A stretch of DNA of 64,000 nucleotides, taken from Acaryochloridaceae cyanobacterium OTE_75_metabat_521 (GTDB taxonomy: Bacteria > Cyanobacteriota > Cyanobacteriia > Thermosynechococcales > Thermosynechococcaceae). Positions 4,431-63,859 of this stretch are shown here, piece after piece. How positions within the stretch are numbered: position 1 is the stretch's first letter; each line of letters opens with the position of its first letter. Under the pieces are notes generated by a model. It saw only the letters and a list, made by a program, of their open reading frames with translations. It was not told where the DNA came from and ran no database searches. Location: assembly GCA_031387975.1 (NCBI GenBank), contig JANNDV010000008.1:1-64000 (forward strand). The letters run 5' to 3'. The translations under genes were made by a program, and so were the position numbers.

Positions 4431-5550
4431 TTATTCCCCAACCGCCGCGACCTGATTTTCCTTTCGTAGATAGGCTTCAATAAAGGGGTCTAATTCACCA
4501 TCCATAACATTTTCAATTGCGGTGGTTTCTACGCCCGTCCGCAGGTCTTTCACCATTTGGTAGGGGTGAAAAACATAGTTGCGGATTTGGGTGCCCCAAG
4601 CTGCCTCAACAATATCGCCGCGAATATCCGCAATTTCGCGGGCGCGCTGCTCTTGCGCCACAATCAGCAGCTTGGCCTTCAAAATGACCAGGGCTTTCTC
4701 TTTGTTTTGGAGCTGCGATCGCTCTTGGGTACAGCGCACTGCCAACCCCGTCGGCAGGTGAACAATCCGTACCGCCGTCTCGACCTTATTGACGTTTTGA
4801 CCGCCCTTACCCCCAGCGCGAGTCGTGGTAATTTCTAAATCTTTATCAGGGATATTTAGCTCCACGCCGTGGTCTAGTTCTGGCATCACCTCAACGCCAG
4901 CAAAACTGGTTTGGCGCTTGCCGTTGGCGTTAAAGGGCGAAATGCGAACCAGTCGGTGCGTCCCTTTCTCAGCCTTTAGGTAGCCGTAGGCATAGAGACC
5001 AGAGATTTCAAGGGTAACGGATTTAAGACCCGCCTCATCCCCCTCAGAAATTTCGGCTAACTGTACCTTATAGCCCTGCTTTTCGGCCCAGCGCGTATAC
5101 ATTCTCAGCAGCATTTCTGCCCAGTCTTGGGCATCGGTTCCACCTGCGCCTGCATTAATGGTGAGGACTGCGCCACCTTTGTCGTAAATGCCTGACAAAA
5201 GCTGCTGAAGCTCCCACTGATCGAGCTGGTGTGCTAACTGCTTGAGGCTTGTTTGGGCTTCGTTGAGTAAACCTGAATCATCCTCAAGCTCTAATAGTTC
5301 TAAGACCGTCTTTGCATCTTCTACTGTGGTGCGCCAACGCTGTAGGCCATCTAGATGCGCTTTGAGTTCGTTGAGAGCCTGAAGCGCGGTTTGTGCCGTA
5401 GCCTGGTTGTCCCAAAAGCTGGGCTGGGCGGCAACTTGCTCTAAGTCAGAAATTTTTGCATTAAGTGCAGGAACGTCAAAGATACTCCTGGGTTTTACCC
5501 AGGCGCTCAGACAACAGCTCAATATCTCGTTTTAAATCAACAACATCCAT
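4431..5550 (-). CDS. prfB: Peptide chain release factor 2, with programmed +1 ribosomal frameshift
   Basis: The body has the GGQ motif ([18 protein letters not shown]) and the SPF region. The short upstream frame [24 protein letters not shown] ends at CTT TGA C (minus strand, + coordinates 5475-5481). An internal SD AGGAG lies upstream, matching the canonical RF2 autoregulatory frameshift. The ORF track shows only the downstream frame, 4431..5522. Confidence 0.9.
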
Positions 5551-5719
5551 GAACCTTAGCGTTACTCCTCGTTTCTTTTAGGATGTTTGACTGAATACGA
5601 AAAATTTGGAGGGGCAGGTTTTGTAGAGAGGCGCTGTACATCACTCATACAGCACTATCGCAACCTGTCCCCACCGCACAATGGAATGAATTCACGATCC
5701 TTCGCAAAATCGAATGAAG

Positions 5720-5956
5720 CTAAAACTTGTTTAAGTTAAGACCAGCTTGTCTTGCTAGGGCATCAATACCTTGAAGTTGAATTGTTTTAATGGCTTTGGT
5801 TGAGAGGCGGAGCTTAACCCAACGCTTGCCTTCAGGCCACCAAACTCGTTTCCACTGCAAATTGACTTCTTGCAGTTTTTTGGTGCGATGGTGAGAGTGA
5901 GAAACCGCGTAGGCGTTATTCGCTTTTCTACCGGTCAGTTGACACTTACGACTCAT
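5720..5956 (-). CDS. rpmB: 50S ribosomal protein L28
   Basis: 78 aa. [27 protein letters not shown]...[12 protein letters not shown] matches the conserved L28 N-terminus. Confidence 0.85.
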
Positions 5957-6198
5957 TGAAAATGCTCCGAGGATCTGTGAGATGGTGCGATCTACTTTTA
6001 TACACTAGGCACAGCCAAGGTGCAAATCAGTACTCAACCCATTTTAATGCAGATTGGCTGCTGAAACGGTATTTTGGTCAGCATCTTTCAAAATCAAACC
6101 CTCAACGAAGGGCTGTTTTCTTCTTTAAGGCTGACGCGCTATGGTTGACTACAGCGTGACGGCGCAACTTAACCACGCCAATCCAGCAGAAATCAGCT

Positions 6199-8367
6199 AT
6201 GCATATTGTTGTTCTTATCCTCATTGAGCTATTGGTTGTCATTGGGCTATCTCGGCTCATGGGGCTTGGCTTTGAGCGCATTAAACAGCCCCTTGTGATT
6301 GGAGAAATTGTGGCTGGCATTATGCTGGGCCCGTCGCTGCTAGGGTGGTTAGCCCCTACCTGGAAGGCTGCGCTGTTTCCCGCAGAGGCGTTGCCCTCGT
6401 TGGGGGTGCTGGCTCAGATCGGCCTCATCTTTTTTATGTTTTTGATTGGCCTAGAGCTAAACCCAAAGTATTTGCGCGGCAACCTTAATATCGCGGTGCT
6501 GGTTTCTCATGTCAGCATTTTGGTGCCGTTTTCTTTGGGCTGTTTACTCGCGCTGCTGCTCTATCCGCTACTTTCTAATGGTGACGTGAGTTTTACGGCG
6601 TTTGCCCTATTTCTGGGGGCGGCAATGTCGATTACGGCGTTTCCGGTACTGGCGCGCATTATTACAGAAAACAACCTCCAGAGCAGTCGGCTGGGGACTT
6701 TAGCGCTCACCTGTGCTGCGGTGGATGACGTGACGGCTTGGTGTGTACTGGCACTGGCGATCGCCGTAACTCGCACCAACAGTATGGCGGGTGCCATTCC
6801 GACCATTCTGTTCTCCATTGTCTACATCGGGGTGATGGTGACGATTGGGCGGCAGTTCCTCAAAAACTTGTCCAAATACTATGACCGTAAAGGGAAGCTC
6901 CCTCAGTTTTTGGTGGCGATTATCTATATGGGTGTAGTGGCTTCTGCCCTCATCACGGAAGTTATCGGCATTCACTTCATTTTTGGCGCTTTTCTGCTGG
7001 GGGCGGTGATGCCCAAAAATGCAGGGCTGACCCGTGAGCTAGCGGAAAAAACCGAAGATTTTGTTTTAGTCTTTTTGCTGCCGCTCTTTTTTGCCTACAG
7101 CGGCCTCAAAACCGAAGTGGGGCTACTCAATAGCCCTGACAAATGGCTATTGTGCCTTGCGGTGGTTGGGGTTGCCATTATTGGTAAGTATGTGGGCACC
7201 TACATTGCGGCTCGCGTATCTGGCATTGATAAACGCGAATCTGCGGCGCTGGGCTGGCTAATGAATACCCGTGGACTCACGGAGCTGATTGTGCTCAACA
7301 TTGGGCTAGAGCTGAAGGTGATTTCGCCGCTGCTGTTTACCATGCTGGTGATCATGGCGCTTGTGACCACCTTTATGACCTCTCCACTGCTGGAATGGAC
7401 GTACCCTAAGCGGCTGATTCGGTTGGATGTGACGGACACCGAAGCAGCAGAAGCGTCTTCTGAACCTCAGCCGATCTACCGTGTGCTGGTGCCTGTGGCA
7501 AACCCGAAGACGCAAAAGGGGTTGATCAACTTGGCCTTGGCGATCGCAGGCACCCGTCAAAACGCGATTGTGCATCCGCTCAGCCTCGTCGAAATCCAGG
7601 AAAACTATGCCTTTGCCAGTATGCCCATTGAAGCGGATCGGCTGGTAGAGCAGCGTCGTATTCAGATCGAGAGTTTGGTGCAGAGCATCCAACCGCCTGA
7701 GGTCAGAGCGCGGCTGCGTCCTATCGTGCGGGTTTCGAGCGACATTGCTCGAGAGACAAGCAGAATTGCAGCCCTCGATCGCACAGACTTAGTGCTGGTG
7801 GGCTGGCATCGACCCGTCTTTGATCAAAATCGACTGGGGGGTCGTGTGGGTCAGATCTTGAGTTCAGCCCGTGCGGATGTTGCAGTTTTTGTGGATCGAG
7901 GATTGCAGCAAATTTCCAAGATTTTAGTGCCCTATGCACCTAGCCTCCATGACGAGTTGGGGTTAGAACTGGCGTTACGGCTGCTCATTAATGCAGAACA
8001 TATTCAGCTTCAGATCTTACGAGTGACTAGCCCTGGCACCCCTGCCGGGGAATTGAGTCGTGAGTTTATGGAGGTTTTGGCTCAGCTTGCGCCCTCAGTC
8101 CGTAGCCGCATAGAGATGCCTATTCTAGAAACTTATTTAGACCCGCTTCAGGCTGTGGTCGATCATTCCGTTACGGTTGATTTAACCATTGCGGGAGCCA
8201 GCCGCGCCTGGGGTTCTGAACGGCAAACCTTAGGTCGCTATGCCGATGCGCTGGTTACGCAGTGTGTCTCTTCCCTGCTCATTACCCGTAAATATAGTCA
8301 GGTCACGTCCCATCTCGCATCTGTACTAGACATAAACCCCAACGAATCGCAGGTGGAGCAGCTATGA
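6199..8367 (+). CDS. Cation:proton antiporter (CPA2/Kef-type) with C-terminal UspA-like tandem domains
   Basis: 722 aa. About 400 aa form a polytopic membrane domain typical of Na+(K+)/H+ exchangers. The soluble C-terminal half resembles universal-stress-protein domains, as in cyanobacterial NhaS3-5-like proteins. Confidence 0.75.
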   Translation: MHIVVLILIELLVVIGLSRLMGLGFERIKQPLVIGEIVAGIMLGPSLLGWLAPTWKAALFPAEALPSLGVLAQIGLIFFMFLIGLELNPKYLRGNLNIAVLVSHVSILVPFSLGCLLALLLYPLLSNGDVSFTAFALFLGAAMSITAFPVLARIITENNLQSSRLGTLALTCAAVDDVTAWCVLALAIAVTRTNSMAGAIPTILFSIVYIGVMVTIGRQFLKNLSKYYDRKGKLPQFLVAIIYMGVVASALITEVIGIHFIFGAFLLGAVMPKNAGLTRELAEKTEDFVLVFLLPLFFAYSGLKTEVGLLNSPDKWLLCLAVVGVAIIGKYVGTYIAARVSGIDKRESAALGWLMNTRGLTELIVLNIGLELKVISPLLFTMLVIMALVTTFMTSPLLEWTYPKRLIRLDVTDTEAAEASSEPQPIYRVLVPVANPKTQKGLINLALAIAGTRQNAIVHPLSLVEIQENYAFASMPIEADRLVEQRRIQIESLVQSIQPPEVRARLRPIVRVSSDIARETSRIAALDRTDLVLVGWHRPVFDQNRLGGRVGQILSSARADVAVFVDRGLQQISKILVPYAPSLHDELGLELALRLLINAEHIQLQILRVTSPGTPAGELSREFMEVLAQLAPSVRSRIEMPILETYLDPLQAVVDHSVTVDLTIAGASRAWGSERQTLGRYADALVTQCVSSLLITRKYSQVTSHLASVLDINPNESQVEQL

Positions 8368-56831: not shown

Positions 56832-57782
56832 CTAATTGTCGGCCTTCACCACATCTAATAATTCGAGAGTAGACACATTGCGGATATCAAACGTGATGAC
56901 ATCGGGATGATCGGGAAGCCTCAGCTCTCCTAACCCAATCCAGCCTTGATGCTGCAACACATACTCTTCGCGATGAATAAAGGCTTGAGTTTGGTCTTTT
57001 GCCACAATAAACGTGCCGTTGGTACTTTGGTCAATCAGCACAAACTTTCCCTTACGAAAAATAATTTGCACATGGTGGCGAGAGGTATAGTCATCGCAAA
57101 TCGACAGATCGTTCTCTGAGTTGCGTCCAATCGTAAAACCGCTTTGCTCGGGCCTCAGCTGTACCACCTGATCATGGTGCTTGAGCTGAAGCACGATTGT
57201 AAACACGGCAGTGTTTGGAATGTAGGTTCTCGCCGTTGTTAATTCTCGCCGCTCCCAAATAATTTGATGTACGCTAATGCGCCCGGTCTTACCAGGGCTG
57301 GGGATGCGCTCCATCGGTCGCGTTTGCATCTGAAGCGGAACCGACAGTGCCTGTACCGTTTCTTGACTCGTGAGAATCTGACCTGATTGTGCAAAGGCTA
57401 CGATTCGCGCAGCGGCATTAACCGTACCGCCAAAGATATCATCATTTTCTGTGATAACGGAGCCAAAGTTTAGCCCAATTCTTAAACCCAACTGAAGATC
57501 GTTAGTGGCGGCATACTGCGTGATGTTTTCCTGCATCTTGCAAGCCGCCCACACGGTCTTGTCCACCTGGGGAAAAATCGCCATAATCTCATCCCCAATC
57601 ACTTTAATCACCTGACCCTCGTGCTGCTGCACGATCTCAGTCAAACGCGTTAAGCAATTTTCGATAATGGTCTTAGCGGCTTCATCCCCCAGAACTTCGT
57701 AAAGTCTGGAGCTACGGCTAATGTCGGCAAACAGAACGGTTTGAAACAAGCTCATAGCCAGGTCACGCGCGAAAGCCGGCAA
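56832..57782 (-). CDS. Class III adenylate/guanylate cyclase fused to C-terminal FHA domain
   Basis: The N-terminal CHD is VLFADISRSSRLYEVLGDEAAKTIIENCLTRLTEIVQQHEGQVIKVIGDEIMAIF...GLNFGSV. The C-terminal FHA is FTIGRNSENDLSICDDYTSRHHVQIIFRKGKFVLIDQSTNGTFI. Confidence 0.7.
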   Translation of the reverse strand: MPAFARDLAMSLFQTVLFADISRSSRLYEVLGDEAAKTIIENCLTRLTEIVQQHEGQVIKVIGDEIMAIFPQVDKTVWAACKMQENITQYAATNDLQLGLRIGLNFGSVITENDDIFGGTVNAAARIVAFAQSGQILTSQETVQALSVPLQMQTRPMERIPSPGKTGRISVHQIIWERRELTTARTYIPNTAVFTIVLQLKHHDQVVQLRPEQSGFTIGRNSENDLSICDDYTSRHHVQIIFRKGKFVLIDQSTNGTFIVAKDQTQAFIHREEYVLQHQGWIGLGELRLPDHPDVITFDIRNVSTLELLDVVKADN

Positions 57783-57995: not shown

Positions 57996-59306
57996 TTAGA
58001 GGGTTTTTGTCAGGTCTTGAAACACGCGCTCAAGAATAGAGATAGCTTCTGCGACTTCTGCCCCGCTCACAATCAACGGCGGCACAAAGCGCACAACTTT
58101 AGGCCCGGCTGGCACGAGTAACAGCCCTTTTTCCATCGCTGCTTTGACCACTTCTGGCGCAGTAAGAGCCACATCGGCGCTAATCTCCAGGCCGTTAATG
58201 AGTCCCCAACCGCGCACTTCGGTCATCAAGGTTGGGTACTGATGAGCCATCGCCCTTAACCCTTCTCTCAACTGTTCGCCGCGCGCCAGCACGTTTGCCA
58301 GCAGATTTTCTTGGGTGAGGGTTTGGCAAACCGCCAAAGCTGCCGCGCAGGCAAAGGGGTTGCCGCCAAAGGTGCTGGCGTGATCCCCAGGGGTAAATAC
58401 ATTACAGAAGGCCTTACACAGCATTGCACCAATGGGGATACCGCCCGCTAAGCCCTTGGCGGATGTAAAAATATCGGGTTCAATCCCTAAGTTTTCGTAG
58501 CCCCAGAGTTGACCACTGCGGCCTATGCCGACCTGTACTTCATCGAGCATGAGCAAAATGCCCTTGTCGCTACAGAGCTGACGCACCTTCTGGAAGTAGC
58601 TCACCTCTCCAGGTCGCACGCCGCCCTCGCCTTGCAGTGGCTCTAGCAGAATAGCGGCAACTTGACGTTCGGAAGCATCGAGTTGGGCGATCGCCGCTTC
58701 TAATGCCGCAATATCGTTATAGGGCACGTAGTGAAACCCTGGCACCAGCGGTGAGAAATTTTGATGGTACTTAGGCTGCGCCGTAGCCGTGACGGTGGCA
58801 AGGGTACGACCGTGAAAGCTGGCATTTGCCGTAATAATGACGGGGTTATGAATGCCTAACACCGTATGGGCGTACTTACGCGCTAACTTGATGGCCCCTT
58901 CATTGGCCTCAGCGCCAGAGTTGCAGAAAAATGCAAAATCTGCACAGGAGTTCTGGGTGAGCCACTGGGCTAAGTCCCCCTGTTGCGGAATGTAGTAAAG
59001 GTTTGAAACATGATGCAGCGTCTGAATCTGTTTCGTCACTGCATCCACCAGTGCCGGATGGGCATGACCCAAAGTGCAGGTGGCAATGCCTGCCACAAAA
59101 TCAAGGTAGCTGTTGCCGTCTGTATCCCAAAGGCGGCAGCCCTCTCCACGGGCGATCGCCAACGGAAACCGACCGTAGGTGGACATAACGCAGCGGTCAA
59201 AGGCAGCAGCGTCAAACCCTGAATCGGATGATATCGCCGCAGCAGGAGAGAGGGTTTCAAGACTCACAAGACTATCCTCGACTGGAATAATGGCTATGTG
59301 CTTCAA
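57996..59306 (-). CDS. argD: Acetylornithine aminotransferase (class III PLP aminotransferase)
   Basis: NSGAEANEGAIKLARKY, LLMLDEVQVGIGRSGQLWGYE and FTSAKGLAGGIPIGA, with the pyridoxal-Lys motif. Confidence 0.85.
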   Translation of the reverse strand: MKHIAIIPVEDSLVSLETLSPAAAISSDSGFDAAAFDRCVMSTYGRFPLAIARGEGCRLWDTDGNSYLDFVAGIATCTLGHAHPALVDAVTKQIQTLHHVSNLYYIPQQGDLAQWLTQNSCADFAFFCNSGAEANEGAIKLARKYAHTVLGIHNPVIITANASFHGRTLATVTATAQPKYHQNFSPLVPGFHYVPYNDIAALEAAIAQLDASERQVAAILLEPLQGEGGVRPGEVSYFQKVRQLCSDKGILLMLDEVQVGIGRSGQLWGYENLGIEPDIFTSAKGLAGGIPIGAMLCKAFCNVFTPGDHASTFGGNPFACAAALAVCQTLTQENLLANVLARGEQLREGLRAMAHQYPTLMTEVRGWGLINGLEISADVALTAPEVVKAAMEKGLLLVPAGPKVVRFVPPLIVSGAEVAEAISILERVFQDLTKTL

Positions 59307-59519
59307 ATTGTATTATGCGCATAATACAATTTGCAAGGCAAACTTTCTTCGATCATGGCACTTTTTTGAAAATCTTAAGCCGAAGATCTCAGGAGAGAGC
59401 GGGAGATCGCGCCCAAGACTGTAACAAAACACAGGTCTAACTGATCTCGATCACATCACTCAAAGATAGAAATGATACTCTAATAGCATCTCAAAAATGA
59501 TCAAATTTGGACTCGCTGT

Positions 59520-59864
59520 ATGCGTCACCTTAATTCTTTATGTGCTGCATGTTCGGGGTTTGCGGTTGCAACCACCCTCCTGATATCTTTTCAGGCTGCT
59601 GCTGCTGTCCCTACTGAAATGAAAGGAACTCAGATTGCTGCTGTAGAACAAGAATCTCAATCCACAGCCGTGTCCCCCAACCAAACGAAAGTTGTTTGCA
59701 GCCGCAATAAGCCACTGTCTTTGACTGCCGAAGGGGTCAAGGTTGCTTCAGGTATTGCCCCTACAAGTGCAGATTGGCTGCCTAACGTGGTTCAGCTTTT
59801 TTGTCGAGATGTACGCATCAATACGATTGTGGTTCGTGATTATTGCGCGGTCATTCGTAACTAG
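59520..59864 (+). CDS. Small secreted protein sharing a Cys-bracketed motif with adjacent protease
   Basis: 114 aa with a signal peptide. The C-terminal FCRDVRINTIVVRDYC matches VCKDVRINTIVIKRC in the C-terminal region of 59967..61538. The match is also visible at the nucleotide level. Confidence 0.4.
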   Translation: MRHLNSLCAACSGFAVATTLLISFQAAAAVPTEMKGTQIAAVEQESQSTAVSPNQTKVVCSRNKPLSLTAEGVKVASGIAPTSADWLPNVVQLFCRDVRINTIVVRDYCAVIRN

Positions 59865-59966
59865 CGACTTGTTCTAGTTTTTCAGTGATCATTCTCTAAA
59901 CAGCATCTTTAAACACAACTCTCTACACAGCCAATCTATTCCTTTACAACAGATCAACGTTTAGCC

Positions 59967-61538
59967 ATGAACGCCTCCTCCCGCCTAACTGCCCTACTTT
60001 TGGGAACAACCGTAATGGTGGCTCAGCCTTTCCATTGGGAAAAGGCCATAGCAGGGGCTTCTATTGGCAAACTTGCCCCTGAAGTAACCGTTTTTATTCA
60101 GGGGGTTAATAACCCTGATAATTTTGGCTCTGGCGTTGTGATTGGACGCACTGGCAAAAACTATCTCGTTTTAACCGCAGCCCACGTCGTTGCAGCGGCA
60201 GATCGATACACTATTCAGGCCAGTGACGGTGTCCAGTACACGCTGCAAAACATTAGAAGGCTCCCTAATGTTGATATGGCAGTCGTTCAGTTTGAAAGCA
60301 GTAGCAGCTATACCGTTGCTCAGATGGGCAACTCCGATGAAGTTAGCTTAACCACTGGCGTATATGTGGCGGGGTACCCGAAACCAGGGCAAAACATTAG
60401 AGTGCCTGTACTCACCATTACAAACGGTGAAATTGCCCAGGTTCTTCCAGCCAATGCTTCTGTTGATGGTTATGGGTTTGCCTATACAAACTCAACCCGC
60501 GCTGGCATGAGTGGTGGGCCTGTGTTTAATAGCCTTGGAGAAGTGATCGCCATTCACGGACGAAAAGAAGGCGAAGCGGGCGGTGGGGCAACCAATGGTG
60601 CTTGGCTGAATCTTGGTATTCCCATTAATCGCTATAAGGGAGCAGGGACAGGCGGCATTCAAATGGCGGCAGCATCCAATGTCGATCTTCAGCAAAAGGC
60701 ACGGGAATCTGCCCAGCGCCAAGCCCAAGAGCAAGCCAAACGCCAAGCTCAGGAACAAGCTCAAGAGCAAGCTCAGCGCCAAGCTCAAGAGCAACAAGCT
60801 AAAGAACAACAAGCTAAAGAACAAGCACGGCAGCGAGCGGCGGCATCAGAAGCGGCTCAGCGCCAAGCGCAAGAACAGGCTCAACGTCAGGCGACAGAGG
60901 CTCAGCGCCAAGCGCAAGCACAACAACAAACTGCTTTGGCGGCGCGGCAGGCGCAGGCGCAAGCCCAACAAAGAGCGGCAGCATTAGAAGCGGCTCAGCG
61001 CCAAGCGCAGGAGCAAGCCCAACAAAAAAATATCCAGGCACAGCAAGCCAATGCCCAACGGCAAGCTCAGATTTCCGCTTCCGCAAAGAACCTTTTGGCA
61101 AGTGCTTCACCCTTTGCGGCCTCTGCAATGTCAGCCCAGCCTTCTAGCATCTCGTCTACGCGAGAAGTTTGTAAGGATGTTCGCATTAATACGATTGTGA
61201 TTAAGCGCTGTAGTACCGAAGTGGTTAATCAAATTCAAGAATCCGCCTCTTCGCCTTCGTCTAACAGTTCAGGGAATGCGGTCAATAGCGGGAATGCGCG
61301 GGCTGCAAGTGGTAATTATCAAGCGGCTGTAGATGAGTATAATTCGGCAATTCAAGGTAATTCTGGCCTTGCGATCGCATTTTTCAATCGCGGTTTAGCC
61401 CACTACAACTTAGGCCAAAAAGATCGGGCGATCGCAGACTTTTCTAAGGCCGCAGAGTTATTTAGATCCCAAGGAGACTCTCAAAAATTCCAAAAAACAC
61501 AGGATATTCTACAGGCGCTTACCCAGGCTAATTCTTAG
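59967..61538 (+). CDS. Secreted trypsin-like serine protease domain + Q/A-rich low-complexity linker + TPR-like C-terminus
   Basis: 523 aa. The protease domain has a His motif (VLTAAHVV), an Asp, and a Ser motif (GMSGGPVF), a chymotrypsin-fold triad order. About 120 aa of AQRQAQEQA repeats follow. The C-terminus (AIQGNSGLAIAFFNRGLAHYNLGQKDRAIADFSKAAELF) is TPR-like. Confidence 0.65.
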   Translation: MNASSRLTALLLGTTVMVAQPFHWEKAIAGASIGKLAPEVTVFIQGVNNPDNFGSGVVIGRTGKNYLVLTAAHVVAAADRYTIQASDGVQYTLQNIRRLPNVDMAVVQFESSSSYTVAQMGNSDEVSLTTGVYVAGYPKPGQNIRVPVLTITNGEIAQVLPANASVDGYGFAYTNSTRAGMSGGPVFNSLGEVIAIHGRKEGEAGGGATNGAWLNLGIPINRYKGAGTGGIQMAAASNVDLQQKARESAQRQAQEQAKRQAQEQAQEQAQRQAQEQQAKEQQAKEQARQRAAASEAAQRQAQEQAQRQATEAQRQAQAQQQTALAARQAQAQAQQRAAALEAAQRQAQEQAQQKNIQAQQANAQRQAQISASAKNLLASASPFAASAMSAQPSSISSTREVCKDVRINTIVIKRCSTEVVNQIQESASSPSSNSSGNAVNSGNARAASGNYQAAVDEYNSAIQGNSGLAIAFFNRGLAHYNLGQKDRAIADFSKAAELFRSQGDSQKFQKTQDILQALTQANS

Positions 61539-61689
61539 AGAATGCCTGTGTCTAAGGGGTCTGAATTAAATAATGCGGCCTGCGTGGCTATCTTCAAACT
61601 TTTGTGATACATGATCGATTTTAAATAAAAGATTCCCATACTAGGGATATAAGCATTTATCTTAATTCCGTATAGCTTATCTATAAAAT

Positions 61690-62553
61690 ATGCGTTTAAA
61701 CGGTTTGACGATTGGGATTGTATTGTGCGGCAGTTTGTTGACGTTTGCGTGTCGATCCACTTCAGCGACAGCACCTGATCGCATTAAAACAAGCAATCAA
61801 ATCGCGCCGTCGCCTTCACTGCATAGTTTTGCGCTAACTCAGAACAAAATTCAGCTTTTACAGCGGCATGCTCGTGGCATTACCGTAAAGGTTATTTCTG
61901 GAGATGACTGGGGTTCTGGGATCTTAATTCGGCAGCAGGGACAGCGCTATACCGTCTTAACCAATGAGCATGTTTTGTGGATCGGCGATCGCTACACGGT
62001 TCAGACCTATGACGGAAAGCAGCACCTGGCACAACGACAATCCTCAGGCAAGTTTGGCAAAAATGACTTAGGGCTACTGGAATTTAGCAGTACCCCATCC
62101 ACGATCTATCCGGTTGCTGCGATCGGCTGCTCTCTAGAACTATCGGCGGGTACCCCTGTCTATGCCGCAGGGTTTCCACTGCCACTCATGGACACTGCTG
62201 TCAAAGGGTTCAAATTTACAACGGGAAAAATCTCGCTCATTGCGTCTAAAGCCCTAGAAGGCGGCTATCAGGTCGGCTACTCTAACAATATTGAAAAAGG
62301 CATGAGTGGCGGCCCAGTGCTCAATGCGCAGGGTGAAGTGATTGCCGTTAACGGCATGCATCAAGAGCCATTATGGGGCGACCCCTACATTTACCAAGAT
62401 GGTTCTAAGCCGAAGTCAAGCTTATTTTCGATGTTTTCGCGCTCAAGCTGGGCGATTCCGATGGAGACTGCCCTCCAAACTAAAGCCCTAACCGCAGCAC
62501 ATTTTGCTCGCCAGTGCCCTACCGCTAGCTCCGTTAAACAGGCTCAAGGCTGA
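61690..62553 (+). CDS. Secreted trypsin-like serine protease (paralog)
   Basis: 287 aa. VLTNEHVL and GMSGGPVLNAQGEVIAVNG parallel the upstream protease (GMSGGPVFNSLGEVIAIHG). Confidence 0.65.
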   Translation: MRLNGLTIGIVLCGSLLTFACRSTSATAPDRIKTSNQIAPSPSLHSFALTQNKIQLLQRHARGITVKVISGDDWGSGILIRQQGQRYTVLTNEHVLWIGDRYTVQTYDGKQHLAQRQSSGKFGKNDLGLLEFSSTPSTIYPVAAIGCSLELSAGTPVYAAGFPLPLMDTAVKGFKFTTGKISLIASKALEGGYQVGYSNNIEKGMSGGPVLNAQGEVIAVNGMHQEPLWGDPYIYQDGSKPKSSLFSMFSRSSWAIPMETALQTKALTAAHFARQCPTASSVKQAQG

Positions 62554-62639: not shown

Positions 62640-63155
62640 CTAATGTATTTTTGTCACCGTTTTAGTGTGAAGCAGAGGCATAATATAAGCCCCTAACCCT
62701 AACCCAGAGACGAGTCCAAAGGCCGTCACAATCGGGTTGCTGTAGCTCCACCAGCCCCAGTATTGTGCCCATAGTTCCGCTGGGTAAGCGAGGCAAAGCA
62801 AGACCGTTAGGCAAAATCCGGCGATGCCGTATTGGTTGAGCCAGTAAGCCTCGCGCCCCGAGTTACGGCTAATCAGCCAGCGCATTAGGACAAGCCCCAT
62901 CAAGGTGCCATAGCAGCGCATACAGACTGCCATAATGTATGGCGGAGACAGCACCAGCCCCATCTCTGGCTGGGGGCAAACGTGATCGCCCATGAAGTAA
63001 ATAATGTTGGCAATGAGCGGCAGCAGCGGCAGTGAGGTAGAGGCTAAAAAGGGCGCTGCCAATGGCCCCCCCACAAGCGCCACTAATACAATATCTGCCA
63101 CCATACTCTTACGAGGGCGCTGCTGTGCTGTTGATTGACTTTGCCAAACCGTCAT
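62640..63155 (-). CDS. DUF2085-like membrane protein
   Basis: 171 aa. A Cys-x-x-Cys-like pair (HVCPQ...CMRC) sits within a 4-TM protein, typical of the DUF2085 family. Confidence 0.45.
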   Translation of the reverse strand: MTVWQSQSTAQQRPRKSMVADIVLVALVGGPLAAPFLASTSLPLLPLIANIIYFMGDHVCPQPEMGLVLSPPYIMAVCMRCYGTLMGLVLMRWLISRNSGREAYWLNQYGIAGFCLTVLLCLAYPAELWAQYWGWWSYSNPIVTAFGLVSGLGLGAYIMPLLHTKTVTKIH

Positions 63156-63196: not shown

Positions 63197-63859
63197 TTAA
63201 AACTCAATACCCGCCTGTGCCTTAACCCCTTGCTCTCGAAATGGGTGCTTTACCAAAGTCATTTCTGTCACCAAGTCTGCGGCTTCAATGAGAGCAGCAG
63301 GCGCACCGCGTCCCGTTAAGATGACGTGAGACTGCTCGGGCTTTTGGCCTATCCCTGCCAAAATCTCGTCGAGCTTTAAATACTCAAGCTTGAGCGCAAT
63401 ATTGATTTCATCTAACAATACAAGCTGATAATCTGGATTCTGGATATATTCTAAAGCTTTAACCCAAGCCTCTTGAGCTTTTAAAATGTCTCGCGCCCGA
63501 TCCTGTGTTTCCCAGGTGAACCCTTCGCCCATCGCGTGGAACTGGATCTGGTCAGGCCATAGGGCAAATACCGATTTCTCTGCGGGTTCCCAGCCGCCTT
63601 TAATAAATTGAATAATGGCAACCTTATGACCGTGACCCAGCGATCGCAGCACCATCCCTAATGCCGCCGTGGTTTTGCCTTTACCATTACCTGTATGGAC
63701 AATAATTAGACCTTTTTGCTGCGATCTCGCGTCTAGCCGCTGTTCTTGAACCTCTTTGCGGCGCTGCATTTTTTTACGATACTGTTCTTCGCTCAAGCCT
63801 TCGTACTGCTTAGGGTCTAGGGTATTAAGCGAACCCGTTTTATCTTCAGAAAAAGCCAT
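63197..63859 (-). CDS. cobO: Cob(I)yrinic acid a,c-diamide adenosyltransferase
   Basis: GLIIVHTGNGKGKTTAALGMVLRSLGHGHKVAIIQFIKG is the CobA/CobO/BtuR P-loop. The C-terminus carries DEINIALKL. Confidence 0.85.
   Translation of the reverse strand: MAFSEDKTGSLNTLDPKQYEGLSEEQYRKKMQRRKEVQEQRLDARSQQKGLIIVHTGNGKGKTTAALGMVLRSLGHGHKVAIIQFIKGGWEPAEKSVFALWPDQIQFHAMGEGFTWETQDRARDILKAQEAWVKALEYIQNPDYQLVLLDEINIALKLEYLKLDEILAGIGQKPEQSHVILTGRGAPAALIEAADLVTEMTLVKHPFREQGVKAQAGIEF

What the first reader, a model, noticed from the sequence alone, without database searches (positions are those of the whole stretch)
59520..61538. Shared Cys-x-DVRINTIV-x3-Cys module between a small secreted protein and the neighbouring secreted protease
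The 114-aa secreted protein ends FCRDVRINTIVVRDYC. The protease 100 nt downstream contains VCKDVRINTIVIKRC between its Q/A-rich linker and TPR-like tail. The nucleotide sequences are also similar (gt[ta]cgcat[tc]aatacgattgtg[ag]tt). A 9-residue invariant core bracketed by Cys residues in two adjacent secreted proteins suggests a disulfide-closed loop. It could serve as a recognition, docking or inhibitor element, such as a pro-peptide-like partner of the protease. It could also be a recent partial duplication. A second trypsin-like paralog follows.
Basis: seen in the sequence. Interest (0 to 1): 0.5.

Follow-up and report, generated by a model that had tools for sequence, protein, structure and literature searches.

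The report
Shared beta-hairpin in protease and neighbour
A small exported cyanobacterial protein and the exported protease encoded right after it carry the same short hairpin-shaped peptide. It has been kept by selection for a long time and is found almost nowhere else, so it probably links the two proteins functionally, though what it does is untested.

Summary
The 114-aa ORF (59520-59864) ends ...LFCRDVRINTIVVRDYCAVIRN. The 523-aa Trypsin_2/TPR protease (59967-61538) carries EVCKDVRINTIVIKRC between its Q/A linker and TPR tail (BLASTP E 1e-4; profile-profile E 3e-8).

It is not a recent duplication. The small protein has at least 84 homologues, and the last 21 residues are almost invariant while the rest is about 45% identical (pN/pS 0.11 against 0.63, with synonymous sites saturated). 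About 70 orthologous proteases keep C-x2-[VI]RINTI[VI]-x3-C, and these are the only two Cys of the mature protein. The two genes are adjacent in 17 of 17 loci.

AlphaFold2 and cross-strand charge pairs, including a D-K to K-E swap, indicate a beta-hairpin with an N-T turn. The shared part is the hairpin tip.

A profile search of 1.84 billion representatives finds the module only in these two families and in two protease-less hairpin+TPR proteins. One lineage has the same T-to-M change in both partners.

No Pfam, NCBIfam, PDB or literature match exists. Best guess: the tip is a ligand for one common site, probably the TPR tail, which would make the small protein a trans-acting partner or regulator of the protease. 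The mechanism is inferred, not shown.

The parts
59520..59864 (+). Gene for a 114-aa exported small protein with no known family. It has an N-terminal signal-like segment (aa 1-~29, read by eye), disordered variable stretches, a conserved strand and an invariant C-terminal hairpin.
   Evidence: ORF. No Pfam, NCBIfam, PADLOC or PDB hit. At least 84 homologues of about 111 aa. Alignments A1 and A2.
59685..59705 (+). Conserved strand TKVVCSR (aa 56-62) carrying the invariant third cysteine C60.
   Evidence: C60 is invariant; V58, S61, N63 and P65 are at least 90% conserved. AlphaFold2 strand E56-62.
59796..59858 (+). Small-protein copy of the module, LFCRDVRINTIVVRDYCAVIR (aa 93-113). It is a long beta-hairpin with its turn at N101-T102; Cys95 and Cys109 are spaced x13.
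   Evidence: Nearly invariant in 85 sequences. pN/pS 0.11 against 0.63 for the rest of the mature protein. AF2 strands 89-100 and 103-113, pLDDT about 70.
59865..59966 (+). 102-nt spacer between the two genes; no terminator-like site.
   Evidence: the only terminator-like hit in 59250-61800 lies inside the protease gene. The spacer is short (about 40-110 nt) in all related loci.
59967..61538 (+). Gene for a 523-aa exported serine protease: signal-like N-terminus, Trypsin_2 domain, Q/A-rich linker, Cys-stapled hairpin, flexible spacer, short TPR tail.
60126..60554 (+). Trypsin_2 (S1C-like) catalytic domain. Putative triad H73 (TAAH), D103 (VDMAV), S182 (GMSGGP).
   Evidence: Pfam PF13365, E 4e-25, aa 54-196. 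Motif positions. The triad is assigned by sequence motif, an inference.
60672..61121 (+). Q/A-rich low-complexity linker (aa ~236-385), a degenerate tandem repeat that varies in length between orthologues.
   Evidence: Composition Q49 and A46 of 150 residues. Tandem repeats at 60720-60824. Orthologue lengths range from 419 to 585 aa.
61170..61211 (+). Protease copy of the module, CKDVRINTIVIKRC (aa 402-415). It is a beta-hairpin with an N-T turn, closed by the only two cysteines of the protein.
   Evidence: 47 distinct modules; tip I-R-I-N-T-I-V conserved; cross-strand pairs E-R and D-K with a K-E swap. AF2 hairpin E13-22/E25-34 of the tail construct.
61290..61535 (+). C-terminal TPR tail: two repeats plus a capping helix, five helices in total.
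   Evidence: Pfam TPR_11 and TPR_1, aa 442-499. AF2 pLDDT above 90. Foldseek best matches are consensus TPR proteins, 1na3 TM 0.91.
61690..62553 (+). Second, shorter Trypsin_2 protease (287 aa) without linker, hairpin or TPR. It belongs to the same conserved cluster in relatives.
   Evidence: Pfam. Orthologues in L006, L007, L010 and L022.

Best explanation
The shared element is an old, strongly selected beta-hairpin module. Its turn is at Asn-Thr and its tip reads [V/I]-R-I-N-T-I-V. In the protease it is stapled by a disulfide and sits on flexible tethers between the Q/A linker and a short TPR domain. In evolution, hairpin plus TPR behaves as one unit that can also exist without any protease domain. 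The small protein encoded immediately upstream is a free-standing, TPR-less copy of the same hairpin, extended to a three-stranded sheet.

What the two copies share is the hairpin tip rather than the stems. The most likely mechanism is therefore that both tips are ligands for one and the same binding site. The most parsimonious site is on the protease itself, in its peptide-binding-type TPR tail. The protease's own hairpin would occupy it in cis or between protomers. The small protein would occupy it in trans and so act as a dedicated partner or regulator of this extracytoplasmic protease. This is analogous in logic to peptide control of DegS/DegP through their PDZ domains.

Shown: the module exists, it is conserved at protein level, the two genes are obligatorily adjacent, the distribution is restricted, and the evidence indicates a hairpin. 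Inferred: export and disulfide formation, any binding, which site is bound, and any regulatory effect.
For: 1. Selection on the peptide. The 21 C-terminal residues are nearly invariant in 85 small proteins that are otherwise about 45% identical. Over 16 genomes the module has pS 0.76 and pN 0.084, against pS 0.69 and pN 0.43 for the rest.
2. The protease copy is conserved in about 70 orthologues. Exactly two Cys of the mature protein bracket it.
3. Adjacency holds in 17 of 17 loci that have downstream DNA. This includes a 44%-identical protease lineage in a different genomic neighbourhood (L026).
4. Hairpin. AF2 gives strand-NT-strand in both proteins. Independent support comes from cross-strand charge pairs: pos2-pos13 E-R in 32 of 47 modules; pos3-pos12 D-K 22, E-K 6 and the swapped K-E 3. 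The same register gives R96-D107 and D97-R106 in the small protein.
5. Tip conservation. Positions 4-10 (I R I N T I V) are 70-98% conserved in the protease copies (the first Ile about 70%, the others about 85-98%), while stem positions vary.
6. Hairpin+TPR is a unit. P0218 (signal peptide, FCRDVRINTIVIPSYC, TPR) and P0215 (two hairpins plus TPR) lack a protease domain yet align to the window's tail end to end (E 1e-18 and 2e-21).
7. The module is otherwise absent. Only 18 of 1.84 billion representative proteins match at E <= 1e-3, all of them in these architectures.
8. Joint change. In L013 and L015 both partners carry RINM instead of RINT. In L011 both tips deviate.
9. The TPR tail resembles 2-3-repeat peptide-binding TPR domains.
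10. A protease relative with a short Cys loop and no RINTIV (Lyngbya confervoides, L029) has no small protein.
Against: - AF2 of the tail does not pack the hairpin onto the TPR domain. The hairpin has pLDDT about 57-64 and is followed by a spacer below 50, so there is no structural support for a cis hairpin-TPR contact.
- No complex could be predicted and no coordinates could be inspected.
- In L019 and L020 the protease tip has decayed (RLGVMV, RIGSVT) while the small protein stays at consensus. The protease's own copy is therefore dispensable for whatever keeps the small protein invariant.
- In L028 a protease with a consensus tip has no small gene beside it.
- The joint T-to-M change amounts to one or two evolutionary events in related lineages and could be coincidence.
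- Both faces of the small protein's hairpin are invariant. That is more than a tip-in-pocket model needs.
Confidence: 0.4

Rival explanations
1. Homotypic pairing. The two hairpins bind each other, edge to edge or face to face. They would form a mixed beta-sheet, or a larger beta-assembly or amyloid-like stack, that physically tethers the small protein to the protease or drives hetero-oligomerisation.
For: - The same motif occurs in adjacent genes, which is the genomic signature used to find amyloid-signalling motif pairs (10.1101/2020.01.06.895854).
- Isolated hairpins with only moderate pLDDT suggest they need a partner.
- A three-stranded sheet with no hydrophobic core of its own, and with both faces invariant, fits an assembly.
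- The same T-to-M change appears in both partners.
Against: - The small module stays invariant where the protease tip has decayed (L019, L020).
- The conserved part shared by the two is the tip, not the strand edges.
- The stems carry intra-hairpin salt bridges rather than a sticky edge.
- The proteins are exported and Cys-containing, unlike known amyloid-signalling pairs.
Confidence: 0.2
2. Substrate-like or inhibitor-like loop. The hairpin tip is read by a protease active site, either protease 1 or the downstream 287-aa protease. In the small protein it would act as a tight-binding pseudo-substrate or inhibitor, or as a cleavage site. In the protease it would be an autoinhibitory or autoprocessing site that can release the TPR tail.
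For: - It is a disulfide-framed exposed loop next to protease genes.
- Arg followed by aliphatic residues sits at the tip.
- Proteases often share a recognition sequence between their autoprocessing site and their substrates (general knowledge, not tested here).
- Two active-looking proteases lie in the cluster.
Against: - Hairpin+TPR proteins exist without any protease domain, and one of them has no protease gene nearby (P0218 in L024).
- There is no similarity to any known inhibitor family.
- The loop has 12-13 residues and no cis-Pro framework, unlike Bowman-Birk/SFTI loops.
- The protease's own copy can decay.
Confidence: 0.15
3. Common third-party anchor. Both hairpins dock to another envelope component, so the module is a localisation tag rather than a protease-regulatory element. 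Candidates are the COP23 protein or SLH/OprB porin of the ancestral cluster, or peptidoglycan.
For: - Synteny with an SLH/OprB porin and COP23 is conserved in most relatives.
- P0215 (two hairpins plus TPR) lies directly after a COP23 gene.
- The small protein stays invariant when the protease tip decays.
Against: - The window itself has neither a porin nor a COP23 gene in 64 kb, yet it keeps both modules intact.
- L026 lacks both neighbours too.
- COP23/protease pairing exists without the hairpin (L029).
Confidence: 0.15
4. No function. The similarity is a leftover of a partial duplication, or of gene conversion between neighbouring genes.
For: Adjacent genes. In the window 22 of 24 core nucleotides are identical.
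Against: - Both copies are conserved across lineages whose small proteins are only 37-50% identical to the window's (protease catalytic domains 44-58%).
- Synonymous sites are saturated (pS 0.76) while pN is 0.08.
- Codon sharing is 0.52 within genomes and 0.44 between them.
Confidence: 0.02

Closest known systems
HtrA/DegP/DegS family (MEROPS S1C) periplasmic serine proteases
   Same: Exported trypsin-fold protease (Pfam Trypsin_2; weak partial hits to the NCBIfam HtrA/DegP/DegS models over the catalytic domain). It has a C-terminal protein-interaction domain that could gate activity through bound peptides.
   Different: There is no PDZ domain. The tail is a Q/A linker, a Cys hairpin and a TPR. 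Scores are 37-50 bits against family cut-offs of 400-750. Peptide regulation here is only an analogy.
Cyanobacterial 'tetratricopeptide repeat-containing S1 family peptidase' (NCBI name), often next to COP23 (PF14218)
   Same: Same Trypsin_2 plus TPR architecture. COP23 is a neighbour in most relatives.
   Different: Most members (Nostoc, Planktothricoides, Rivularia, Merismopedia) have no Cys and no hairpin. Only one subclade has the RINTIV hairpin and the small partner. No published functional work was found.
Disulfide-closed reactive loops of canonical serine-protease inhibitors (Bowman-Birk, SFTI-1)
   Same: A short beta-hairpin framed by a disulfide, with a basic residue near the tip, encoded next to a serine protease.
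   Different: The loop has 12-13 residues, not 9, and no Pro-Pro framework. There is no sequence or profile match. The tip is invariant rather than hypervariable. Inhibition was not tested.
Amyloid-signalling motif pairs (bacterial BASS, fungal HET-s/PP, RHIM)
   Same: A motif of about 20 residues is shared between the C-terminus of a small protein and the protein encoded by the adjacent gene; it is beta-rich (10.1101/2020.01.06.895854).
   Different: Those pairs are cytoplasmic, joining a Bell or other effector domain to an NLR N-terminus. Here both proteins carry signal peptides and conserved Cys, the partner is a protease, and the motif is internal. No NLR or Bell domain is present.
TPR-peptide recognition (Hop/CHIP/SGT with EEVD tails; APC/C TPR subunits with C-terminal Ile-Arg tails)
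   Same: The tail is a 2-3-repeat TPR whose closest solved folds include such peptide-binding TPRs. The small protein ends in a conserved [VIL]-R-x.
   Different: The ligand proposed here is a hairpin tip, not an extended acidic tail. The resemblance to IR tails is recalled from memory and was not tested.
C-terminal sorting tags with a dedicated processing enzyme (PEP-CTERM/exosortase, LPXTG/sortase, GlyGly-CTERM/rhombosortase)
   Same: A highly conserved C-terminal tag on a small exported protein, encoded next to a protease.
   Different: No transmembrane helix or basic cluster follows the motif. The protease is a soluble S1 enzyme, not a membrane sortase-type enzyme. There is no NCBIfam tag model hit.

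Membership tests
HtrA/DegP/DegS (S1C with PDZ) | Trypsin-fold catalytic domain with a His-Asp-Ser triad | tested here: met
   Pfam Trypsin_2, E 4e-25. Motifs TAAH73, D103 and GMS182GGP. The triad is assigned by motif only.
HtrA/DegP/DegS (S1C with PDZ) | One or two C-terminal PDZ domains | tested here: not met
   No PDZ hit in Pfam; the C-terminus is TPR.
HtrA/DegP/DegS (S1C with PDZ) | Score above the NCBIfam family cut-off | tested here: not met
   Best score is 50 bits against a cut-off of 416 (TIGR02037). The HhoA/HhoB/HtrA model gives 42 against 450.
Tetratricopeptide repeat-containing S1 family peptidase (Trypsin_2 + TPR) | Trypsin_2 domain followed by TPR repeats in one polypeptide | tested here: met
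   Pfam PF13365 plus PF00515/PF13414 above their cut-offs. Homologues carry this name from NCBI.
Bowman-Birk / SFTI-type canonical inhibitor loop | Nine-residue disulfide-closed loop C-T-[KR]-S-x-P-P-x-C, or a match to the family profile | tested here: not met
   The loop is C-x12-C or C-x13-C without Pro-Pro. No Pfam or PDB match.
Bowman-Birk / SFTI-type canonical inhibitor loop | Stoichiometric inhibition of a serine protease | not testable with these tools
   Needs enzyme assays.
Amyloid-signalling motif pair (BASS/HET-s-like) | Motif at the C-terminus of an effector (Bell, HeLo etc.) and at the N-terminus of an adjacent NLR/STAND protein | tested here: not met
   The partner is a Trypsin_2-TPR protease and the motif is internal (aa 402-415). 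There are no NACHT/NB-ARC or Bell hits. Both proteins have signal-like N-termini.
Amyloid-signalling motif pair (BASS/HET-s-like) | Motif forms amyloid or prion-like fibrils | not testable with these tools
   Needs fibril assays.
C-terminal sorting tag (PEP-CTERM and similar) | Signature motif, then a hydrophobic transmembrane helix, then a basic cluster at the extreme C-terminus | tested here: not met
   Only AVIRN follows the second Cys, so there is no transmembrane segment. No NCBIfam hit.
Bacterial lipoprotein (small protein) | Invariant lipobox Cys after a signal peptide of adequate length | tested here: not met
   Cys11 in 'LAAC-SG' is replaced by G, F or Y in several homologues and lies only 10 residues from the start.
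TPR domain | Helix-turn-helix repeats matching TPR profiles | tested here: met
   Pfam TPR_1 and TPR_11. AF2 gives five helices with pLDDT above 90. Foldseek to CTPR2 1na3, TM 0.91.

The most novel reading that the evidence does not exclude
The hairpin is the cognate ligand of the TPR tail, and the small protein is a genetically dedicated trans-acting regulator (activator, inhibitor or substrate adaptor) of an extracytoplasmic serine protease. That would be a new hairpin/TPR control module doing the job that PDZ domains and C-terminal peptides do in DegS/DegP. The protease would carry its own tethered pseudo-ligand.
Probability: 0.25. Interest if true: 0.6.

Novelty: new variant of a known kind. 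Interest (0 to 1): 0.45.

Why it matters
Trypsin_2-TPR proteases are common in cyanobacteria, often sit next to COP23, and have no assigned function. This case gives a concrete handle on them. The element is about 20 residues long and almost invariant. It is present in a protease and in its obligatory neighbour, can be made as a synthetic peptide, and can be mutated at defined positions (R-I-N-T).

If the hairpin turns out to be a TPR ligand, it would define a new small recognition module and a new way of controlling envelope proteases. If it does not, it remains an unannotated conserved family of at least 84 sequences and a new domain boundary for database curation. The distribution is narrow: 10 of 185,579 species genomes. 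The impact would therefore be mechanistic rather than broad.

Tried and rejected
- Word-index search with the protease tail alone returned only 6 fragments. The full-length query was needed.
- Two scans of metagenome contigs were useless. The first gave 81 pattern matches, none confirmed. A degenerate DNA pattern for C-x-DVRINTIV then gave only 3 chance hits in gut metagenomes.
- The exact source contig of the window could not be recovered. P0091 is 100% identical but not on record.
- The gene-conversion / recent-duplication idea was tested by codon sharing and rejected.
- Nucleotide-level constraint (RNA element or overlapping feature) is rejected, because synonymous sites are saturated.
- The small protein is not a lipoprotein.
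- It is not an anti-phage defence system. PADLOC gives only generic trypsin-domain hits.
- Sequence search of the PDB found nothing for the small protein, and only a chance 16-residue match (E 2.8) for the module.
- Literature searches for the motif, for COP23 and for TPR-S1 peptidases found nothing relevant.
- A RiPP-precursor reading was considered. It was not pursued because no modifying enzymes are conserved nearby and the 'core' is invariant.
- AF2 gave only moderate confidence for both hairpins.
- The small-protein model (mean pLDDT 54) was judged too poor for a fold search.
Full report
**Observation**

The window holds three consecutive + strand ORFs:
- 59520-59864, 114 aa.
- 59967-61538, 523 aa.
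- 61690-62553, 287 aa.

The first ends ...VVQLFCRDVRINTIVVRDYCAVIRN. The second contains ...STREVCKDVRINTIVIKRCSTEVV at aa 399-419.

Pfam finds nothing in the small protein. In the 523-aa protein it finds Trypsin_2 (aa 54-196, E 4e-25) and TPR (aa 442-499). In the third protein it finds Trypsin_2 only. NCBIfam gives only sub-threshold HtrA/DegP-type hits over the catalytic domain.

The motif occurs exactly twice in the six-frame translation of the 64 kb. The pairwise match has E 1e-4. A profile-profile comparison of the two families gives 95% probability, E 3e-8, over 17 columns.
- Five conserved residues follow the second Cys of the small protein.
- The Cys spacing is x13 in the small protein and x12 in the protease.
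- The small protein has a third conserved Cys.

**The small protein is a family with an almost invariant tail**

A search of 5.8 billion proteins returned 84 homologues, all about 110 aa and none with a Pfam domain. The named ones come from Thermosynechococcaceae/Acaryochloridaceae MAGs and Altericista.

In alignments of 29 and 85 sequences the body is only about 45% identical. In contrast, LFCRDVRINTIVVRDYCA[VIL][IVL]R is invariant or at least 90% conserved at every position. C60 within TKVVCSRNRPL is also invariant.

I computed a Nei-Gojobori comparison over 16 genomes:

| Region | pS | pN | pN/pS |
|---|---|---|---|
| Module (21 codons) | 0.76 | 0.084 | 0.11 |
| Rest of the mature protein | 0.69 | 0.43 | 0.63 |

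Synonymous sites are saturated. The constraint is therefore on the peptide, not on DNA or RNA.

**The protease copy is also old**

The full-length protease retrieved about 70 orthologues.
- All have just two Cys in the mature protein, spaced x12. They bracket C-[EK]-x-[IV]-R-I-N-T-I-[VI]-x-[KP]-R-C, and always lie between the Q/A linker and the TPR tail.
- A few lineages have altered tips: RINMIV, RIAVMV, RLGVMV, RIGSVT.
- More distant relatives have short loops (CGAAGC, CQLPGDQSC).
- The Nostoc-type Trypsin_2-TPR proteases have no Cys at all.

**Co-occurrence**

In 17 distinct loci that carry the small gene and have downstream DNA, the protease gene follows within about 40-110 nt every time. 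These loci are the window, L001-L011, L013, L015, L019, L020 and L026. The set includes Altericista sp. CCNU0014, Petrachloros mirabilis ULC683, a Stenomitos MAG, and a lineage whose protease is only 44-46% identical and sits in a different neighbourhood (L026).

The window has no terminator-like site between the two genes.

The reverse does not always hold:
- One protease with a consensus tip has no small gene beside it (L028).
- A Lyngbya confervoides relative has a short Cys loop, no small gene, and no RINTIV anywhere in 13 kb (L029).

Only 10 of 185,579 species-level genomes carry the small protein.

**Not a duplication artefact**

At codons encoding the same residue, the small-gene and protease-gene modules of one genome share the codon in 52% of cases. 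Modules taken from different genomes do so in 44%. The window (7 of 9 codons shared) is at the high end; other genomes show 1/6, 2/8 and 3/9. There is therefore no sign of recent duplication or ongoing gene conversion.

**Structure**

AlphaFold2 of the small protein, with 85 sequences, is poor overall (mean pLDDT 54). It does give three strands: 56-62, 89-100 and 103-113. The last two form a long hairpin with its turn at N101-T102 and pLDDT of about 70.

AlphaFold2 of the protease tail (aa 386-523, 32 sequences) gives three parts:
- A hairpin, strands 13-22 and 25-34 of the construct, with the same N-T turn and pLDDT about 57-64.
- A disordered spacer.
- A confident five-helix TPR domain with pLDDT above 90.

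The closest solved folds to that TPR domain are 2-3-repeat consensus and peptide-binding TPRs.

Residue statistics over 47 distinct protease modules support the same register independently of AlphaFold:
- Position 2 pairs with position 13 as E-R in 32 modules.
- Position 3 pairs with position 12 as D-K (22), E-K (6), or the swapped K-E (3).
- The two Cys fall directly opposite each other.

Applied to the small protein, this register gives R96-D107 and D97-R106 pairs. It also puts C95 opposite Y108 and C109 opposite F94. A simple intrahairpin disulfide is therefore doubtful there, and the third Cys (C60, on the neighbouring strand) may be involved. I could not measure distances because model coordinates are not exposed.

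**What is shared, and where else it occurs**

The residues common to both families are the end of strand 1, the turn, and the start of strand 2: [VI]-R-I-N-T-I-V. This is the hairpin tip. The stems differ.

A profile of the module was searched against 1.84 billion representative proteins. Only 18 hits reached E <= 1e-3. They are small proteins, proteases and fragments of these, plus two new architectures:
- P0218: signal peptide, FCRDVRINTIVIPSYC, TPR.
- P0215: signal peptide, two hairpins, TPR.

Both align with the window's tail from the hairpin to the end of the TPR, minus the flexible spacer (E 1e-18 and 2e-21). P0218 is a solitary gene (L024). P0215 follows a COP23 gene (L025).

Hairpin plus TPR is therefore an evolutionary unit that does not depend on the protease domain. 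The small protein is a hairpin without the TPR.

**Joint changes**

In L013 and L015 the protease tip is RINM, and the small protein's tip is also RINM. This is the only place where T102 of the small protein changes. In L011 both tips deviate: RFNTL in the small protein and RIAVMV in the protease.

In L019 and L020, however, the protease tip has decayed while the small protein is at consensus. Over the 16 loci where both modules could be read (L009 ends inside the linker), tip deviation in the small protein is found only where the protease also deviates (3 of 3). These represent at most two independent events, so the signal is suggestive only.

**Mechanism**

The following are shown:
- A protein-level-selected hairpin module exists in two obligatorily adjacent genes for exported-looking proteins.
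- It is stapled by the only two Cys in the protease.
- It is evolutionarily coupled to a short TPR domain.
- It is essentially unique to this clade.

The mechanism is inferred. I think the most likely reading (about 0.4) is that the conserved tip is a ligand for a single binding site, most economically the TPR tail. On this view the protease carries a tethered copy and the small protein supplies a free copy that acts in trans as partner or regulator. This parallels peptide/PDZ control of DegS and DegP.

Evidence against this reading:
- AlphaFold does not dock the hairpin on the TPR.
- The protease's own tip can be lost.
- The small protein is invariant on both faces of its hairpin, which is more than the model needs.

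Rivals:
- Direct hairpin-hairpin pairing (0.2).
- A substrate- or inhibitor-like loop read by a protease active site (0.15).
- A shared anchor on a third envelope component such as COP23 or the SLH/OprB porin (0.15).
- A functionless remnant (0.02, effectively refuted).

**Comparison with known systems**

The protease belongs to the loosely defined cyanobacterial 'TPR-containing S1 family peptidases'. It is not an HtrA/DegP member: it has no PDZ domain and scores far below the family cut-offs.

The hairpin fails the membership tests for each family considered:
- Bowman-Birk/SFTI loops: wrong length, no Pro-Pro, no profile match.
- Amyloid-signalling motif pairs: no NLR or Bell domain, exported proteins, internal position.
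- C-terminal sorting tags: no transmembrane helix.
- Lipoproteins: the candidate Cys is not conserved.

No Pfam, NCBIfam, PADLOC or PDB entry covers the small protein or the module, and no paper in the searchable library does either.

**Verdict**

This is a real and previously unannotated conserved module with an unusually invariant sequence and an obligatory gene pairing. Its function is unknown and its taxonomic range is narrow. I rate it as a new variant within a known kind (an extracytoplasmic S1 protease with a C-terminal interaction domain and a cognate partner). Interest is moderate, 0.45.

Noticed in passing
L004, L006, L007, L010, L011, L013, L015 (relatives); whole window: Relatives keep a larger cluster: SLH/OprB porin, small protein, hairpin-TPR protease, COP23 (PF14218), then the 287-aa protease. 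The window has no porin or COP23 homologue anywhere in its 64 kb (tblastn). Only the small gene and the two protease genes stayed together.
   Followed up: partly
L029 (Lyngbya confervoides) 5141-7224: COP23 lies directly upstream (45 nt) of a Trypsin_2-TPR protease that has a short Cys loop (CQLPGDQSC), no RINTIV and no small protein. The COP23/protease pairing looks older and wider than the hairpin and small protein.
   Followed up: partly
L024 527-1003 (P0218); L025 534-1160 (P0215): These are protease-less exported proteins made of one or two RINTIV hairpins fused directly to the same TPR type. P0215 follows a COP23 gene. P0218 is solitary, next to phosphoribulokinase.
   Followed up: partly
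L008 3829-5031; L022 364-1566 / L023 889-2091: Tandem duplicates of the hairpin-TPR protease in which the second copy has a degenerating hairpin (HCATVKINTISTPSPFC; CIETRINTIVVPC with odd Cys spacing).
   Followed up: no
window 60672-61121: The Q/A-rich linker is a degenerate tandem repeat (periods 12/15/36 at 60720-60824). Its length varies among orthologues (419-585 aa). It generates spurious ORFs on both strands (60492-60824 -, 60613-60987 +, 60814-61128 -). It also coincides with N-runs or split gene calls in other assemblies (L007; P0085-P0087).
   Followed up: partly
window 59967-60014: The database gene call identical to this protease (P0091, 507 aa) starts 16 codons downstream, which would delete the signal-like N-terminus. 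The longer N-terminus is conserved at protein level in L004, L006, L008 and L010, so the 523-aa start is more likely.
   Followed up: partly
window 61690-61760; L007 10340-11245: The second protease has a Cys at the end of its signal-like segment (LTFAC in the window, a canonical LAGC lipobox in L007). It may be a lipoprotein in some lineages.
   Followed up: no
window 59520-61538: The small gene and the protease gene are in the same reading frame, separated by 34 codons that contain three in-frame stops (TAG, TGA, TAA). There is no evidence of readthrough, and the frame relation was not checked in other loci.
   Followed up: no
window 56832-57782 (-), 57996-59306 (-), 62640-63155 (-), 63197-63859 (-): The flanking genes are unrelated housekeeping or signalling genes: an adenylate/guanylate cyclase-FHA protein, a class-III aminotransferase, a DUF2085 membrane protein and the corrinoid adenosyltransferase CobO.
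   Followed up: yes
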